From: Candidatus Nomurabacteria bacterium
Lineage (GTDB): Bacteria > Patescibacteriota > Minisyncoccia > Phycocordibacterales > JACOZG01
Assembly: GCA_020847275.1 (NCBI GenBank)
Contig: JADLCI010000006.1
Span: 1-61,285 of the forward strand
DNA length: 61,285 nt
Reading direction: 5' to 3'
Shown here: positions 10,643-52,475 of the stretch, piece by piece
Position numbering within the stretch: the stretch's first letter is position 1
Layout of the letters: every line of letters begins with the position of its first letter
Made by a program: the position numbers and the translations under genes
The notes under the pieces: generated by a model
Told to the model about the DNA's origin: nothing
Databases searched by the model: none
The model's input: only the letters and a program-made list of their open reading frames with translations

Positions 10643-11233
10643 TTATAGGACTTTCAGTTTGCTAAAGTCCTCCTTCAAAGTATCCAATAATGATCGATTG
10701 TAAATGGCGGCGGCCGGATGATAGAGCGGTAGAATTCTCACTTTACCATAAGTAATTTCTGTCTCAAAAAGCTGGCCGTGCATCTGACCAATACTGCGTA
10801 AAACGTCCCCAAGGCCAAACCTGGTCATAATATATTGCATTGAGAAACGTCCCAGCGTAGCGATTATTTTGGGTCGAATGATTTCAATTTGTCTGTCCAA
10901 AAAAGGCCCGTAAACTTCTATCTCCCCCGGAGTTGGGTCCCGATTTTCCGGTGGACGATCTTTCACAATATTCGTAACATAAACTGAGGCTCTCGGAATA
11001 TTTACACTGGCCAGAAGTTCATCGAGTAATTTACCTGACGCACCGCAGAAAGGTTTCCCCGTTGCCGCTTCGTTACGCCCTGGAGCTTCACCTACAAACA
11101 TAATCTGTGCTTCGTGACTACCCTCGCCAATCACTGGTAAATTTTTATTAGAAATTCGAAAGGTATACAGTGGCGAATCTTTTAAAGTTAGAATCTCGTC
11201 ACGGATTTGTTTAAGACTTTCCGTTTTCGTCAT
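10643..11233 (-). CDS. uracil-DNA glycosylase, family 4
   Basis: GEAPGRNE, KPFCG, TNIVKDRPPENRDP, YHPAA motifs. Confidence 0.93.
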   Translation of the reverse strand: MTKTESLKQIRDEILTLKDSPLYTFRISNKNLPVIGEGSHEAQIMFVGEAPGRNEAATGKPFCGASGKLLDELLASVNIPRASVYVTNIVKDRPPENRDPTPGEIEVYGPFLDRQIEIIRPKIIATLGRFSMQYIMTRFGLGDVLRSIGQMHGQLFETEITYGKVRILPLYHPAAAIYNRSLLDTLKEDFSKLKVL

Positions 11234-11696
11234 AACCGATACCACCAGATGTAAGCTTCTGCTCTAGTGACCAAAAAACGGTAAAAATAAGCAGAGTGAG
11301 AATACTCACAAGAAGACCAAGAGTGAAAAAACCGAAACCAATCGCCATGCCAATTCCGGACGAAACCCAGATCCCGGCTGCCGTGGTTAAACCACTCAAT
11401 TTGCGCGCTCCATCACGGAAAATAATGGAACCCGCACCGAGAAATCCGATACCAACCACAATCTGCGAGGCAACACGGAGCGGATCAAAACTGCGAATTC
11501 CTTGGGCAATGTACTGTTGGGCGACTAAGGTGGAAACGATGATAAAGAGAGCCGAGCCAAGAGAGACGAGGGCGTAAGTACGCATACCGGCTGTTTTACC
11601 CGCCAGCGTCCTCTCAATCCCAAGTGCCCCACCCAGAACCACGGCTAGGACCAGCTTGATGATAATGTCCCAGTTAGATGAAACGGTTACTAGCAT
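11211..11696 (-). CDS. mgtC: MgtC/SapB-family membrane protein
   Basis: GIER...AGMRTYALVSLGSA, QIVVGIGFLGAG, GLTTAAGIW motifs. Confidence 0.93.
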   Translation of the reverse strand: MLVTVSSNWDIIIKLVLAVVLGGALGIERTLAGKTAGMRTYALVSLGSALFIIVSTLVAQQYIAQGIRSFDPLRVASQIVVGIGFLGAGSIIFRDGARKLSGLTTAAGIWVSSGIGMAIGFGFFTLGLLVSILTLLIFTVFWSLEQKLTSGGIGYDENGKS

Positions 11697-11779
11697 AGAC
11701 TAGATTATACCAGACCTTACGGTGGGGAGGAATTGGGAACGAGTTATACTTTATCCCCAGTAAAAAACATTGCGTTTGC

Positions 11780-11808
11780 TTGTGTCAGGAAAACCACTTT
11801 GTTATAAT
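11780..11808 (+). promoter_or_regulatory. extended -10 promoter of the RNA-microprotein unit
   Basis: TTGTGT(11780-85)-17 nt-TATAAT(11803-08) with TG at 11800-01. Confidence 0.75.
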
Positions 11809-11814
11809 GTTAGG

Positions 11815-12120
11815 AGTGAATTTTGAAAATTAGGTTTTTTCTCCGTTTGGTTTGGTAAACCAGGCACACAAGGGGGCACAGCAATTCAGTAGCCGTAAGA
11901 ACACCAAGAAAGTTTCGCACGGTACTGGGACAAGATGATTCGTCATTAAGTCTCGGCTTACCACTGGGATGAGTTAGCCGAAAGGCTACCTTGTCCAGTG
12001 CTGTGCAAAGTTTTGTTGGTGTTTTTTGTTTCGCAGTACACCCCAACTTTCGCGAAAGTTAGGCAAGCACCGGTCGACTAGGGCGCAGAGAAAACTGCTG
12101 ATTATTAAGACCTAATTTTA
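11815..12120 (+). ncRNA. unidentified ~300-nt highly structured RNA (ncRNA or very long leader)
   Basis: Closing helix AAAATTAGGT(11826-35)/ACCTAATTTT(12110-19); TTTTCTC/GAGAAAA; ~35-bp helix 11897-11934/11990-12026 with G-U pairs; UUCG and GAAA tetraloops. Confidence 0.7.
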
Positions 12121-12125
12121 GTCAA

Positions 12126-12269
12126 ATGACTATTTGCAGGCCATTCATTACCTTGCGTAATGGACGCGTGTTATTCGCATCTGAAGTAGGACGCAAGGCG
12201 TTCTGCTTCGATGTTGACAAAGAAAGACCGAAAAAGCCCCCGAAGCTTTTAAAAGCTAAGGAGGTCTAG
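12126..12269 (+). CDS. 47-aa basic microprotein (not in ORF track)
   Basis: ATG 12126 to TAG 12269: MTICRPFITLRNGRVLFASEVGRKAFCFDVDKERPKKPPKLLKAKEV; fills the gap between the RNA and the terminator. Confidence 0.65.
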   Translation: MTICRPFITLRNGRVLFASEVGRKAFCFDVDKERPKKPPKLLKAKEV

Positions 12270-12282
12270 TTCGGAATCCATT

Positions 12283-12322
12283 GAAATACCGCTTTCGTCT
12301 GACGGGGGCGGTATTTCTTGTT
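12283..12322 (+). terminator. intrinsic terminator
   Basis: GAAATACCGC/GCGGTATTTC 10-bp stem extended by G-U pairs, then TTGTT. Confidence 0.75.
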
Positions 12323-12418
12323 CACTTATATACTAACAACACGTCGCCGTCCCTGTCACTGTTTATAACTACTGGAAAGCCGCTTGAATTGTAAGTCAAT
12401 ACTGTTATGTCCTCAAAC

Positions 12419-14731
12419 CTATTCCGCCTCCGCCCAGTTTGGTCCAGACTTAGCATTGACGACCAGCGGAACACCAATATTGGCCGCCCCTTCCATTGTC
12501 TGTTTAATTATTGGTAAGACCTCGTCCACTTTTTCATTTTTTATTTCATAAATCAGTTCATCGTGAACCTGAAGCAAGAGGTGAACACTTTCCCTCCAAC
12601 CCCCTTTTTCAATCAATTCGTCTATCTGTTTCATTGCCATCTTCACAATATCCGCGGCCGTACCCTGAAGCGGAGCGTTGACGGCCATTCTCTCACTCAT
12701 CGCCCGCAGGAACGGTAAACGCGACTTAATACTGGGAAAATATCGTCTCCGACCAAAAAAAGTTTCAGTGTAACCATTTTTTCTTGCAAAAGTTTTCACT
12801 GACTCGAAATAGTTTCTAATCGTGGGAAAGGCGGCAAAATAATCATCATAGAATTTTTGAGCCGTGGCGCGATCTGTCCCCAGATTGGCCCGCAAGGCGT
12901 TCACGCCCATGCCATAAATAATCCCGAAGTTAATCACCTTGGCATGGCGACGCATTTCTTTTGTCACCTCATTCGCTGAAACCTTGAAAACCTTCTGCGC
13001 CACAGAAGTATGGACATCCTCACCAGTTGCAAAAATTTTCTGTAATTCCTGATCACCAGAAAGAGCAGCAAGGACACGCATTTCAATTTGTGAATAGTCT
13101 AATGCGCACCAAGTATACCCGGGCGACGCGAGAAAAGCGCGCCGAATAGCCTGACCATGAGTCTCGCTCGCTGGAATGTTTTGCAAGTTGGGATCAGTGG
13201 AAGACATCCTTCCGGTTGTCGAACCAGTCTGATTAAGCGTGCTGTGCAGGCGGCTATTCTCATCTACCAGTTTTGGCAAACTATCAATATAGGTAGACAA
13301 TAACTTCTGCAATTCTCGGTAGGCGAGGATATCGGTAATCACCGGATGCTCACTCTGTAATTTCAACAGTTCTGATTCTTTGGTCGAGCGTGCGCCACCA
13401 GCCGTCTTCTTGCCGGTTTTAAGAAGCAGTTTGTCAAACAAAATTTCTGCTAACTGTTTCGGTGAATTAAGATTAAACTTCTCACCTACTGCTTGATAAA
13501 TCTTGCCCTCCAGCTTGGTCAGCTCCGCATGATAACCCACGGAGAGATTACCGAGATAAACCCTGTCCACGAGAATCCCCCGTTCCTTAGCGTGTTTAAC
13601 TATCGGTATAAGAGGCAATTCAATTTCCCGATAAACTTTTTCCAAATTATTCCGCTTGATTTCCTCTAGAACCTTTTTCGCACCACCAAGTTTTTCTAAA
13701 TCCTCCGTCGTTGCGGTTGTTTTCTCTGAATCCAGTAGCCAGACGGCAATCGCCAAATCACGGCCCAGTTCCTTTTTTTCTGTTTCTTTTTCTTTATTAA
13801 TGACCACCAACTTCTCACCCAAAGCAGCTCGAACGCGCGTGCCAAGTGTCCTGAACTCCAGTTTTGCAAATAGGGCATCAACTTTTGCCAAATCTAGATT
13901 TTCTTTCCAGGTTTTTTCAGGTATAGAAAATTTAATTTTTGCATCCCGCCGAATGGTCGCCAACGTTTTAGAAAAAACAGCCTCCTCTTCCCCCTCACGC
14001 AACAATTTAATTACCCTTTCGGTTAAACCTGCTTCCTTAAACTTTTTCTCACCATCTTTTGCTCTCAGTCTTTTGTAAATTTCTTCCACTGTGCCAAACT
14101 TCGTAATCAGAATGGTCGCCGTCTTTTCTCCAATCCCGTTAATTCCGATAATATTGTCAGAGGGGTCGCCACGCAAGCCCTTCCAGTCGGGGAGTAATTC
14201 TGGGCCGAACCCAAACCGCTCTTTCACTTTTTCCTCGTCATACAGGATAGTATCGTTGATTCCCTTTTTAAGTGTGTAAACTAAAACTTTTTTATCATCC
14301 ACAAGTTGCAATGTGTCCATATCACCAGAAGCAATCACCACTTGTAAATTTTTTTGACCTCTCATCTCCTCTACAATCGTGCCAATGATATCGTCGGCTT
14401 CAAAGCCCGCCAAGTCGTATACAGGAATACCAAATGTAGTGAACAAATCCCGTGAAGTCTCCATCTGCTTCACCAATTCTGTATCGGCCTTCACGCGCCC
14501 CGCTTTATATTGATCATAAACTTGCTTCCGGAAAGTGGCCTCGGCGCGATCATAGCAAGCAATCAGGTAATCAGGCTTTAAATCATTCACAATTTTAATC
14601 AACATCGCGGCGATACCATAAAGTCCGCCAGTTGGTTCTCCGGCACTATTTTTAAAATCCGGCAAAGCGTGATAGGCGCGATGAAGAATCGCGTGAGCGT
14701 CAAGCAATATTAATTTGACGGGTGTTTTCAT
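12419..14731 (-). CDS. polA: DNA polymerase I (5'-3' exonuclease plus polymerase; 3'-5' exonuclease region largely absent)
   Basis: LLDAHAILHRAYHA, EADD, GDPSDNI, TGRMSSTDPNLQNIP, DYSQIEMR, LQVHDEL motifs; 770 aa. Confidence 0.97.
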   Translation of the reverse strand: MKTPVKLILLDAHAILHRAYHALPDFKNSAGEPTGGLYGIAAMLIKIVNDLKPDYLIACYDRAEATFRKQVYDQYKAGRVKADTELVKQMETSRDLFTTFGIPVYDLAGFEADDIIGTIVEEMRGQKNLQVVIASGDMDTLQLVDDKKVLVYTLKKGINDTILYDEEKVKERFGFGPELLPDWKGLRGDPSDNIIGINGIGEKTATILITKFGTVEEIYKRLRAKDGEKKFKEAGLTERVIKLLREGEEEAVFSKTLATIRRDAKIKFSIPEKTWKENLDLAKVDALFAKLEFRTLGTRVRAALGEKLVVINKEKETEKKELGRDLAIAVWLLDSEKTTATTEDLEKLGGAKKVLEEIKRNNLEKVYREIELPLIPIVKHAKERGILVDRVYLGNLSVGYHAELTKLEGKIYQAVGEKFNLNSPKQLAEILFDKLLLKTGKKTAGGARSTKESELLKLQSEHPVITDILAYRELQKLLSTYIDSLPKLVDENSRLHSTLNQTGSTTGRMSSTDPNLQNIPASETHGQAIRRAFLASPGYTWCALDYSQIEMRVLAALSGDQELQKIFATGEDVHTSVAQKVFKVSANEVTKEMRRHAKVINFGIIYGMGVNALRANLGTDRATAQKFYDDYFAAFPTIRNYFESVKTFARKNGYTETFFGRRRYFPSIKSRLPFLRAMSERMAVNAPLQGTAADIVKMAMKQIDELIEKGGWRESVHLLLQVHDELIYEIKNEKVDEVLPIIKQTMEGAANIGVPLVVNAKSGPNWAEAE

Positions 14732-51596: not shown

Positions 51597-52475
51597 ATGT
51601 CTAGCGAGATTGAAGTTTGGCGACGGCGATTTCTAGAGCATCTGGAAATTGAAAAAGGGCGGAGTTTGAAGACGGTAGAAAATTATGACCGCTATCTCAC
51701 CGATTTTTTTACTTTTTCCAAGATCAACACGATTAAACAGATTGATGATGAACGGATCCGCGAGTGGCGCTTGGCTCTTAATCGTCGCGGACTCAAGAAA
51801 AATACGCAAAATTATCACTTGATTGCCCTACGAACCTTTCTTAAGCATCTTTCTTGGCGCGGAGTGGATTCCCTTGCCCCCAATCGCATTGAGCTTGCCA
51901 AGACCGGCGCTCGGGAGCTTGATTTAATCAGTGCTGTTGAGCTTGAGAGATTACTAAATGCGCCGAGTGACAAGGATGAAAAAGGTTTGCGAGACAAGGC
52001 TATCTTGGAACTCTTCTTCTCGACCGGCCTGCGTGTATCAGAGCTTTGCGGTCTCAACCGAGACAGTTTTGATCTGAAACAGGACGAGTTCAGTGTTCGG
52101 GGGAAGGGCGAGAAGGTTCGTCTGGTCTTTCTCTCCCCTGCCGCCCGTGGGGCGCTACAGAATTATTTAGCAAAGAGGCAGGATCTTACTGGTGAGGCTT
52201 TGTTTGTAAATAAAGACGGTGACCGACTCACTCCGCGCAGTGTGGAGCGACTGATTAAGGTCTATGCACTTAAGGCTGGAATCTCTAAGAAGGTGACACC
52301 ACACATAATTCGCCATAGTTTCGCCACGGACCTACTCCAGAACGGCGCAGATATTCGCTCGGTGCAGGCTCTCCTTGGTCATGCCAATATTGCCACGACC
52401 CAGATTTATACTCATGTTACAGACAAGCATCTCAGAGAAGTCCACAAACGCTTTCACGGCAAAGATCGTGCTTAG
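51597..52475 (+). CDS. XerC/XerD-family tyrosine recombinase
   Basis: [52 protein letters not shown] motifs. Confidence 0.95.

What the first reader, a model, noticed from the sequence alone, without database searches (positions are those of the whole stretch)
11780..12322. Top candidate: unassigned ~300-nt multi-helix RNA co-transcribed with a 47-aa protein in an autonomous unit
Seen (+ strand, fixed by G-U pairs and UUCG/GAAA loops): promoter TG-t-TATAAT 11800-08. End-closing helix AAAATTAGGT/ACCTAATTTT (10 bp perfect) plus TTTTCTC/GAGAAAA. Hairpins at 11845-65 and AACTTT-CGCG-AAAGTT (12045-60), and GGGG/CCCC. A ~35-bp helix (11897-11934 with 11990-12026; 2 mismatches, 1 bulge) is capped by a junction carrying ATGA-UUCG-TCAT, a central 23-nt element and TAGCC-GAAA-GGCTA. 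The ATG lies 6 nt after the closing helix and a terminator ends the unit. I cannot match it to RNase P, tmRNA, SRP, 6S, group I/II introns, omegaRNA/HEARO or common riboswitches. The terminal repeats plus long hairpin recall retron msr-msd, but there is no RT in the window. Inference: a new RNA-microprotein module (RNP, trans-acting RT template, or type I toxin-like mRNA with a sequestering leader).
Basis: partly seen in the sequence, partly recalled or inferred. Interest (0 to 1): 0.85.

Follow-up and report, generated by a model that had tools for sequence, protein, structure and literature searches.

The report
Structured RNA plus small-protein cassette
This intergenic stretch of a tiny uncultivated (Patescibacteria) bacterium carries a real, conserved two-part cassette that matches no described family: a folded RNA of about 215 nt that ends in its own terminator, followed by a 47-residue protein gene; relatives sit beside integrase genes of phage-like mobile elements.

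Summary
The finding is real, but its anatomy needs correcting.

**RNA.** It is on the + strand and runs from about 11815 to a U-tract at 12021-12033, roughly 215 nt, not 300. It has its own extended -10 promoter. No Rfam family matches. It recurs at 88-91% identity in two other MAGs and in at least 10 metagenome variants. A divergent copy (L107) is found by a covariance model at E = 3.5e-9.

**Fold.** Parts that covary:
- a 5' hairpin;
- a long terminator stem of 30-35 bp;

The 5' hairpin loop is complementary to the loop of cap hairpin P4 over 6-7 nt. This holds in four lineages, each with a different sequence.

**Protein.** The 47-aa ORF is a real gene. It has 35 homologues, no Pfam or PHROG match, and a confident small beta-sheet model. 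Homologues lie next to tyrosine integrases or ImmR/ImmA lysogeny modules. In four or five lineages the same RNA architecture precedes them.

**Not conserved.** The 10-bp "closing helix" and the spacer are specific to the window. One lineage has the RNA without the ORF, and phage lineages have the ORF without this RNA.

**Best reading (about 0.4).** The RNA is a terminator-gated leader controlling a small gene of mobile elements. Function is unproven, and no transcript data were available.

The parts
11780..11808 (+). Promoter: extended -10 TGtTATAAT (11800-11808), with a weak -35 TTGTGT (11780-85)
   Evidence: Sequence. A Logan variant (X20/X21) has TATAAT 15 nt before the first conserved base, against 14 nt in the window. 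The start at about 11815 is inferred; it was not mapped.
11815..12033 (+). Structured RNA of about 215 nt, from the inferred start to the end of the U-tract
   Evidence: z = -4.5. 88-91% identical in L083/L100/L101. Partial variants in at least 10 metagenome runs. A divergent homologue in L107. No Rfam match.
11845..11865 (+). 5' hairpin P1a (11845-51 / 11859-65) with loop L1 UUGGUAA (11852-58). It is enclosed by P1, UCUCC 11840-44 / GGGGG 11872-76
   Evidence: All 7 pairs are kept in 4 sequences through 5 one-sided changes (helix 2). A YCUC...GAGR stem is present in L107, L115 and L116.
11897..12026 (+). P2 long stem (11897-11926 / 11997-12026, extendable by 11928-34 / 11990-96) carrying the branched cap. 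Its base and the U-tract make an intrinsic terminator
   Evidence: Pair table. 95-96% of cells are paired. There are 4-5 double compensatory changes against L107, and slid controls give about 40% paired.
11935..11946 (+). P3 hairpin AUGA-UUCG-UCAU
   Evidence: The loop is swapped to GCAA in L083. In L107 the stem is GGUAAC-GAAA-GUUACC, with 2 double compensatory pairs.
11950..11970 (+). P4 hairpin (Z 11950-56 / X' 11964-70) with loop L2 CUUACCA (11957-63), complementary to L1
   Evidence: 7 of 7 pairs are kept in L107, with 1 double and 4 single changes. L1/L2 complementarity by lineage: UGGUAA/UUACCA in the window and L083, UGAAAG/CUUUCA in L107, UUCAUAG/CUAUGAA in L115, UUAGCG/CGCUAA in L116.
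11975..11988 (+). P5 hairpin UAGCC-GAAA-GGCUA. This is the variable arm
   Evidence: Compensatory substitutions and paired insertions in 9 metagenome variants.
12021..12033 (+). U-tract (UUUUUUGUUU) that ends the conserved RNA
   Evidence: Similarity to L083 and to every Logan variant ends here, and the flanks beyond it differ.
12034..12125 (+). Spacer specific to the window. It includes the 3' arm of the 10-bp 'closing helix' (12110-19)
   Evidence: No counterpart in L083 or L107. Duplex test.
12126..12269 (+). Gene for a 47-aa protein (core ICRPFITLRNGRVLFA..GRKAFCF, with a Lys/Pro tail)
   Evidence: 35 true homologues with E down to 5e-12 among 1.84 billion representatives. Codon-usage score is the best of six frames. 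AF2 pLDDT is 94-96 over residues 1-30. No Pfam, PHROG or PDB match.
12283..12327 (+). Terminator of the cassette (GAAATACCGC ... GCGGTATTTC, then TTGTT)
   Evidence: The 83 nt at 12244-12326 recur 100% identical in another context in runs X7 and X11.

Best explanation
This is a self-contained two-part cassette of mobile-element origin.

**How it is proposed to work.**
1. An extended -10 promoter drives a leader RNA of about 215 nt.
2. The RNA folds into a 5' hairpin (loop L1) and a long stem of 30-35 bp (P2).
3. The base of P2 plus the following U-run forms an intrinsic terminator.
4. Transcripts that read through the terminator carry the gene for a small basic beta-sheet protein, 47 aa here.
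5. L1 pairs with the loop of P4 (L2). This contact crosses P2, so it makes a pseudoknot.
6. I propose that this contact, together with the strand-exchangeable X/Z/X'/Y core, sets how much transcription passes the terminator. The RNA would then act as a gate (attenuator or riboswitch-like leader) on a small regulator of integration or lysogeny modules. A stable 215-nt RNA would be left as the terminated product.

**Shown:** conservation, strand, helices, the loop-loop covariation, the reality of the protein family, and its neighbourhoods.

**Inferred:** co-transcription, the gating role, and any role of the protein.
For: **Conservation and boundaries.** The RNA is conserved with sharp boundaries at the promoter and the U-tract.

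**Covariation of the helices.**
- P2, P3, P4 and P5 all covary.
- 96% of cells are paired, against about 40% in slid controls.
- 8-9 pairs carry double changes, and 0 of 500 shuffles reach that.

**Loop-loop contact.** L1/L2 complementarity of 6-7 nt uses four different sequences in four lineages. The chance estimate is about 1.3% per lineage.

**Link between the RNA and the protein gene.**
- No promoter is evident between the U-tract and the ATG.
- The U-tract lies 55-130 nt before the ORF in the window, L107, L115 and L116.
- The ORF family is real.
- Homologues in other lineages also sit behind structured leaders. The ImmA-linked phage forms have a three-hairpin leader whose last hairpin covers the SD.

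**Mobile-element context.**
- Integrase is adjacent in L114-L117, and ImmR/ImmA in the L109 type.
- The cassette is absent from the syntenic gap of the closest relative.

**RNA without the ORF.** In the RNA-only locus L083 the RNA again precedes a small gene on the same strand. A modular leader would be expected to do this.
Against: - No transcript data exist; RNA runs were sought and none found. The start, termination and read-through are therefore all inferred.
- P2's lower stem forms in both alternative cap folds. No conserved antiterminator was found, and the pseudoknot-versus-terminator competition is only a topological argument.
- The RNA is far more conserved than anything downstream of it, and it persists without the ORF (L083/L100/L101). 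That fits an RNA with a function of its own at least as well as a leader.
- In L083 the downstream 73-aa gene has its own conserved leader, shared with L094, where a different RNA occupies the slot.
- The covariation rests on few independent lineages. Many window-clade variants were reconstructed from difference tables, not read directly.
Confidence: 0.4

Rival explanations
1. RNA-protein partnership, with type III toxin-antitoxin-like or RNP logic. The RNA is the functional partner (antidote or scaffold) of the small basic protein. The terminator between them sets an excess of RNA over protein. The cassette serves its mobile element, for example in addiction, abortive infection or control of excision.
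For: - The order promoter, RNA, terminator, protein gene is the layout of ToxIN-type loci (established knowledge).
- The two parts co-occur in 4-5 lineages.
- The protein is small and basic with a Lys-rich tail.
- The cap nucleotides are invariant, as expected for a protein-binding surface.
- RNA-only loci could be orphan antidotes.
- The context is a mobile element.
Against: - The RNA has no tandem repeats.
- The protein is about 45 aa with no nuclease-like fold or family.
- At least 20 phage loci carry the protein without this RNA.
- No binding or toxicity data exist.
Confidence: 0.27
2. Independent trans-acting small RNA gene. The RNA acts alone, by sequestering a protein or by base pairing, and the ORF is merely a neighbouring passenger in some elements.
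For: - It has its own promoter and its own terminator.
- It is 88-91% identical between genomes whose flanks share nothing.
- RNA-only loci exist.
- A different stand-alone RNA occupies the same slot in L094.
Against: - The RNA recurs immediately upstream of the same rare protein family, on the same strand, in four lineages with diverged sequence. Chance adjacency does not explain this well.
- No conserved single-stranded seed exists. UCUCC is replaced in variant X19.
Confidence: 0.2
3. DNA-level element, or no function. The repeated CTGGGAC-type motifs (X, Z, X', Y) and the long palindrome are protein-binding sites, an att-like site or an ssDNA hairpin for the neighbouring recombinases. Alternatively the fold is fortuitous.
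For: - Four copies of one motif, in direct and inverted orientation, change together in L107: CTGGGA becomes CTAGGA.
- Integrase genes lie nearby in relatives.
Against: - Differences between the repeat copies, and between homologues, are the transitions that keep G-U pairing on the + strand only.
- Tetraloop swaps (UUCG, GCAA, GAAA), paired insertions in P5 and loop-loop covariation have no meaning in duplex DNA.
- The promoter and U-tract are conserved at the boundaries.
- The window has no integrase within 40 kb.
Confidence: 0.06

Closest known systems
Type III toxin-antitoxin loci (ToxIN, CptIN, TenpIN)
   Same: One promoter, a structured RNA gene first, a Rho-independent terminator that lets only some transcripts through, then a protein gene. 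They are carried by phages and plasmids.
   Different: - The RNA here is a single complex fold, not tandem 36-nt-type repeats.
- The protein is about 45 aa with a small beta-sheet, not a ToxN-fold endoribonuclease of about 170 aa.
- Each part is found without the other.
Terminator-type riboswitches and attenuator leaders (for example purine riboswitches, with loop-loop docking and a terminator platform)
   Same: - A highly conserved junction core with variable peripheral hairpins.
- A long-range loop-loop tertiary contact.
- An intrinsic terminator upstream of the controlled gene.
- Alternative pairings among four segments.
   Different: - The sensor is nested inside the terminator stem rather than overlapping one of its strands.
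- No antiterminator was identified.
- No ligand or gene-function logic is apparent.
- No Rfam family matches.
Phage immunity and retroregulation RNAs (lambda sib/tI hairpin next to int; P1/P7 c4-icd-ant; P4 CI RNA)
   Same: A structured RNA with a long hairpin terminator sits in the integration/immunity region of temperate elements and controls a small downstream gene. Read-through and terminated transcripts have different fates.
   Different: - No sequence or structural homology was shown.
- sib acts from downstream of int through RNase III.
- c4 and CI are processed antisense RNAs with target repeats, and none was found here.
Excisionases / recombination directionality factors (for the protein)
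   Same: Small basic proteins encoded next to tyrosine integrase genes at prophage ends.
   Different: - No Xis/HTH_17-type Pfam match.
- The predicted fold is a small beta-sheet, not a winged helix.
- The window copy has no integrase nearby.

Membership tests
Any Rfam 15 family (including RNase P, tmRNA, SRP, 6S, HEARO/omega RNA, riboswitches, retron msr) | Covariance-model score at or near the family's gathering threshold | tested here: not met
   The window, L083 and the relatives were scanned at the gathering threshold and at E up to 10. The only hits were 15-23-bit chance matches to miRNA, snoRNA and Spot42 models.
Type III toxin-antitoxin | The antitoxin RNA consists of tandem direct repeats processed by the toxin | tested here: not met
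   A self-comparison of the unit finds no direct repeats beyond the 8-11-nt X/X' similarity.
Type III toxin-antitoxin | A terminator lies between the RNA gene and the protein gene under one promoter | tested here: met
   The U-tract at 12021-33 follows P2, and no promoter-like site lies between it and ATG 12126. The layout is the same in L107, L115 and L116. Read-through itself was not measured.
Type III toxin-antitoxin | The toxin is a ToxN/AbiQ-fold endoribonuclease | tested here: not met
   The protein is 47 aa with no Pfam, PHROG or PDB sequence or fold match.
Retron (msr-msd) | A reverse transcriptase gene is adjacent to the ncRNA | tested here: not met
   No RT was found in the window neighbourhood or among the neighbouring ORFs and called genes listed for the related loci.
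Retron (msr-msd) | Conserved flanking inverted repeats a1/a2 close the ncRNA | tested here: not met
   The 10-bp repeat 11826-35 / 12110-19 exists only in the window. It has no equivalent in L083, L107, L115 or L116.
Type I toxin-antitoxin | A small hydrophobic membrane toxin plus an overlapping antisense RNA | tested here: not met
   The protein is basic and hydrophilic with a beta-sheet core. No antisense promoter or transcript is evident.
Terminator-type riboswitch / attenuator leader | A conserved structured sensor followed by an intrinsic terminator upstream of the regulated gene | tested here: met
Terminator-type riboswitch / attenuator leader | A mutually exclusive antiterminator pairing that disrupts the terminator | tested here: inconclusive
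   Two cap folds (X:Z + X':Y, or X:Y + Z:X') are isoenergetic in the window clade, at -50.3 against -50.2 kcal/mol, and both can still form in L107. Both keep P2's lower stem. In L107, L115 and L116 the P4 form dominates. L1:L2 crosses P2 as a pseudoknot, but competition between them was not tested.
Excisionase / RDF (protein) | A small basic protein encoded beside a tyrosine integrase | tested here: met
   Phage_integrase domains are adjacent in L114, L115, L116 and L117. This is not so in the window, where the nearest recombinase is 40 kb away.
Excisionase / RDF (protein) | Winged-helix / HTH_17-type DNA-binding fold | tested here: not met
   No Pfam match. The AF2 model has four short strands and one helical turn. 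No PDB neighbour was found.

The most novel reading that the evidence does not exclude
The cassette would be a previously unrecognised class of mobile-element switch. In this reading, a pseudoknotted two-state RNA has a cap that isomerises by strand exchange between X:Z + X':Y and X:Y + Z:X'. That state is read out by, or sets the dose of, a new small beta-sheet protein that controls integration or excision, or host takeover. The 215-nt RNA and the microprotein would form a dedicated RNP found from Patescibacteria to phages.
Probability: 0.2. Interest if true: 0.85.

Novelty: categorically new. Interest (0 to 1): 0.68.

Why it matters
- **New families.** Neither the RNA nor the protein belongs to a described family, yet both are under clear selection. 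They are shared between ultra-small Patescibacteria and phage-like elements.
- **Complexity of the RNA.** A multi-helix RNA of about 215 nt with a covarying long-range loop-loop contact is unusually complex for a bacterial leader or sRNA. Such complexity has usually signalled ligand sensing, catalysis or a dedicated RNP.
- **The protein.** It adds a widespread microprotein family of 40-60 aa that gene callers and word-indexed searches miss. It sits in the integration/lysogeny modules of temperate elements, where small regulators decide between lysogeny and excision.
- **Testability.** The cassette is small enough (about 520 bp) to be tested directly in laboratory strains.

Tried and rejected
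**Identities for the RNA that were considered and rejected**
- Housekeeping RNAs (RNase P, tmRNA, SRP, 6S, 5S). There is no Rfam signal. The SRP helix-8 motif and the RNase P P4 strands are absent by eye. Earlier notes place RNase P RNA and tmRNA elsewhere in this genome.
- MITE. The copy is single in the window. The conserved unit does not coincide with the inverted repeat, and there is no target duplication.
- DGR template. There is no similarity to the VR-like region at 22.8 kb.
- Antisense ORF 11810-12046 as a gene. Its amino-acid identity between the window and L083 is lower than the nucleotide identity, variants carry indels, and it has no homologues.

**Associations that were considered and rejected**
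- Link to the IS1595-like transposase next to the RNA in L083. At least five distinct relatives of that gene with downstream sequence in hand lack the RNA.
- L094's RNA, which sits in the same slot, as a homologue. Only the post-terminator leader aligns.

**Searches that found nothing or too little**
- The word-indexed protein search found no homologue of the ORF. This was a false negative, overturned by the exhaustive HMMER search.
- JGI metagenome pattern scan: only one true hit.
- IMG/VR scan with the RNA's invariant 18-mer: none.
- Phage GenBank blastn: none.
- RNA-seq runs holding the RNA: none.

Full report
**Setting.** The window is from a Patescibacteria (Paceibacteria/Parcubacteria-like) genome. 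Its PolA is 74% identical to that of a "Patescibacteria group bacterium" MAG and 50-60% identical to many Paceibacteria. The finding lies in a 722-nt gap between two minus-strand genes: mgtC (11211-11696) and polA (12419-14731). In the closest relative (L001) the gene order is the same, polA-mgtC-udg-xth-holA. Its gap is only 260 nt and is unrelated in sequence. The unit is therefore an optional insertion, not part of the conserved backbone.

- The region folds far better than shuffled sequence: z = -3.9 for 311 nt and z = -4.5 for 11815-12042.
- No Rfam 15 family matches, either at gathering thresholds over the whole window or at E up to 10 on the region and on its homologue.
- ARAGORN finds only ordinary tRNAs.

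**Relatives and true boundaries of the RNA.**
- Public Logan contigs from soil, permafrost, pond, groundwater, sediment and freshwater metagenomes hold only the core, about 11886-12030, at 90% identity or more. Their flanks are unrelated.
- One JGI contig (L083) and two NCBI MAG contigs with the same sequence (L100, L101) carry a full-length copy.
- Homology starts at UUUGAAAAU, just after a -10 box. A TATAAT lies 14 nt upstream in the window and 15 nt upstream in variant X20.
- In every case homology stops at GGUGUUUUUUGUUU.
- The conserved gene is thus about 11815-12033, and the long helix with its U-run is an intrinsic terminator.
- The spacer 12034-12125, the 10-bp "closing helix" and the ORF are absent from L083. 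A duplex test shows the closing helix is significant only in the window.

**Strand and helices.**
- Within the window clade, the block 11921-11969 is invariant except for the P3 tetraloop (11939-42), which is UUCG in the window and GCAA in L083.
- The variable positions in the 5' strand of the long stem are C-to-U changes opposite G, or opposite A. They are tolerated only in a + strand RNA.
- L083 carries a double compensatory change: C11918-G12005 becomes U-A.
- The P5 hairpin varies freely, with compensatory substitutions and paired insertions.
- The 5' hairpin keeps all 7 pairs through five one-sided changes.
- Caveat: most window-clade variants were reconstructed from read laying difference tables and are approximate near their ends.

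**The ORF is real.**
- A word-indexed search found nothing. An exhaustive HMMER scan of 1.84 billion representatives then found 37 hits. Of these, 35 are small proteins of 42-113 aa sharing the core M.ICRP[FWY]ITLRNGKRLYA...GKKAFCF.V at 40-78% identity. The other two are low-complexity artefacts.
- Codon usage in the ORF frame is the best of the six frames and lies within the range of real genes.
- AlphaFold with a 12-sequence alignment gives pLDDT 94-96 over residues 1-30. The model has four short strands and one helical turn, followed by a disordered Lys/Pro/Glu tail.
- There is no Pfam, PHROG, PDB-sequence or PDB-fold match. Only two [15 protein letters not shown] siphovirus proteins match in BFVD.
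- A Cys-less subfamily, M[WY]IFRAWITTKDG.KIYAKDHGKRAFRFWV, shows that the cysteines are not essential.

**Neighbourhoods of the protein family.**
- In IMG/VR contigs the gene lies next to tyrosine integrases in L114, L115, L116 and L117.
- In the L109-113/118 type and the L121-137 type it lies directly after an HTH / ImmA(IrrE) pair. These loci are usually near contig ends.
- In L107 it lies between FtsK-gamma/TrwB-like genes and a tRNA plus a DNA methylase.
- It is therefore a gene of the integration/lysogeny modules of mobile elements.
- The window copy has no integrase within 40 kb.

**The RNA travels with the ORF.**
- A covariance model built only from the window-clade core (R1) hits L107 at 2305-2440. 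The hit is on the ORF's strand, about 60 nt before its ATG, full length, at 43.4 bits and E = 3.5e-9.
- Weaker hits fall at the equivalent place in L115 (19.9 bits), L116 (17.5) and L114 (13.5).
- L119, a 604-nt contig, begins inside what looks like the 3' strand and U-tract.
- The window/L083/L107 alignment was scored under the fold with X:Z + X':Y and under the fold with X:Y + Z:X'. Paired cells are 96% in both, against 31-45% when partners are slid. Pairs with changes on both sides number 9 and 8, against about 3 in shuffles; 0 of 500 shuffles reach the observed values.

**Long-range contact.**
- The 5' hairpin has a YCUC...GAGR stem. Its loop is perfectly complementary over 6-7 nt to the loop of cap hairpin P4.
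- The sequence differs in each lineage:
  - window and L083: UGGUAA/UUACCA;
  - L107: UGAAAG/CUUUCA;
  - L115: UUCAUAG/CUAUGAA;
  - L116: UUAGCG/CGCUAA.
- A generous chance estimate is about 1.3% per lineage.
- Because L1 precedes the 5' strand of P2 and L2 precedes its 3' strand, L1:L2 together with P2 makes a pseudoknot.

**Two cap folds.**
- Segments X (11925-31), Z (11950-56), X' (11962-73) and Y (11990-12000) can pair in two ways: X:Z + X':Y (two stacked hairpins), or X:Y + Z:X' (P2 extended to 35 bp, plus P4).
- The two folds are isoenergetic in the window (-50.3 against -50.2 kcal/mol) and in L083 (-51.3 against -50.9).
- All four pairings remain possible in L107, because X, X', Z and Y changed together.
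- In L107, L115 and L116 the ensemble strongly favours the P4 form.
- I therefore treat the P4 form as the family fold, and the alternative as a possible but unproven switch.

**What it most likely is.** The shown facts are these:
- a promoter-to-terminator structured RNA with tertiary covariation;
- a conserved microprotein gene 55-130 nt behind that terminator, with no evident promoter of its own;
- a mobile-element context;
- separability of the two parts.

The reading I favour (about 0.4) is a terminator-gated leader that controls the dose of a small regulator, with the terminated RNA as a by-product or a second product. Homologues of the protein in other lineages are also preceded by structured leaders, including an SD-sequestering hairpin. 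In the RNA-only locus the RNA again precedes a small same-strand gene.

The main rivals are as follows.
- A type III-TA-like or RNP partnership (about 0.27).
- An autonomous sRNA (about 0.2). This is favoured by the much stronger conservation of the RNA than of anything downstream, and by RNA-only loci.
- DNA-level or chance explanations, which are unlikely (about 0.06) given the wobble-specific substitution pattern, the tetraloop swaps and the loop-loop covariation.

**Limits.**
- No RNA-seq run holds the sequence, so the transcript ends are inferred.
I could not look for an RT, further copies or a partner elsewhere in the genome.
- The genome contigs and metagenome-contig scans were each limited to one use.
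- Independent lineages are few: four with the full architecture.

**Verdict.** It is a genuine, unassigned RNA-plus-microprotein cassette. Three corrections apply: the RNA ends at an internal terminator, the closing helix is not part of the family, and the retron and type I toxin readings are not supported.

Noticed in passing
L083 1890-2777 (-); L092-L106: The IS1595-family 'transposase' next to the RNA in L083 belongs to a family of more than 3000 proteins of about 290 aa that are 60-73% identical. It appears once per contig in Patescibacteria and always in a different neighbourhood. This is unusual for an active IS and looks like either a domesticated gene or a very successful single-copy element.
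   Followed up: partly
L094 3925-4115: A different structured RNA of about 190 nt (z = -5) has a TTGACT-17-TATCAT promoter and its own terminator. It occupies the slot where L083 carries the RNA studied here. The 71/73-aa ORF downstream (63% identical) and its leader are orthologous. The slot seems to accept interchangeable RNA genes.
   Followed up: partly
window 12244-12326: The last 8 codons of the 47-aa ORF plus the cassette terminator (83 nt) occur 100% identical, with unrelated flanks, in Logan contigs from two other wastewater studies (X7, X11). This suggests a reused 3' module or a recombination junction.
   Followed up: no
L121, L123-L137 (IMG/VR): A Cys-less subfamily of the microprotein (M[WY]IFRAWITTKDGEKIYAKDHGKRAFRFWVGPGPEP, about 40 aa) lies after ImmA/IrrE genes. 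It has a conserved three-hairpin leader of about 170 nt whose last hairpin sequesters the SD.
   Followed up: partly
window about 51660-52460: A tyrosine recombinase about 30% identical to the phage integrases that neighbour the ORF homologues. It is probably XerC/D, or a remnant integrase 40 kb from the cassette.
   Followed up: no
window 11697-11720 (minus strand): The ATG of mgtC lies 6 nt after a TATAAT box, so the mRNA is probably leaderless. The 47-aa ORF also lacks an SD, unlike its phage homologues.
   Followed up: no
L107 2708-2785: A tRNA gene follows directly after the terminator of the ORF homologue, and a DNA methylase follows that. This layout is typical of the end of an integrated element.
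   Followed up: no
window 12181-12213: A near-perfect hairpin of about 15 bp lies inside the 47-aa coding region, and the whole 12036-12325 stretch folds with z = -4.4. The mRNA part of the cassette is also unusually structured.
   Followed up: no
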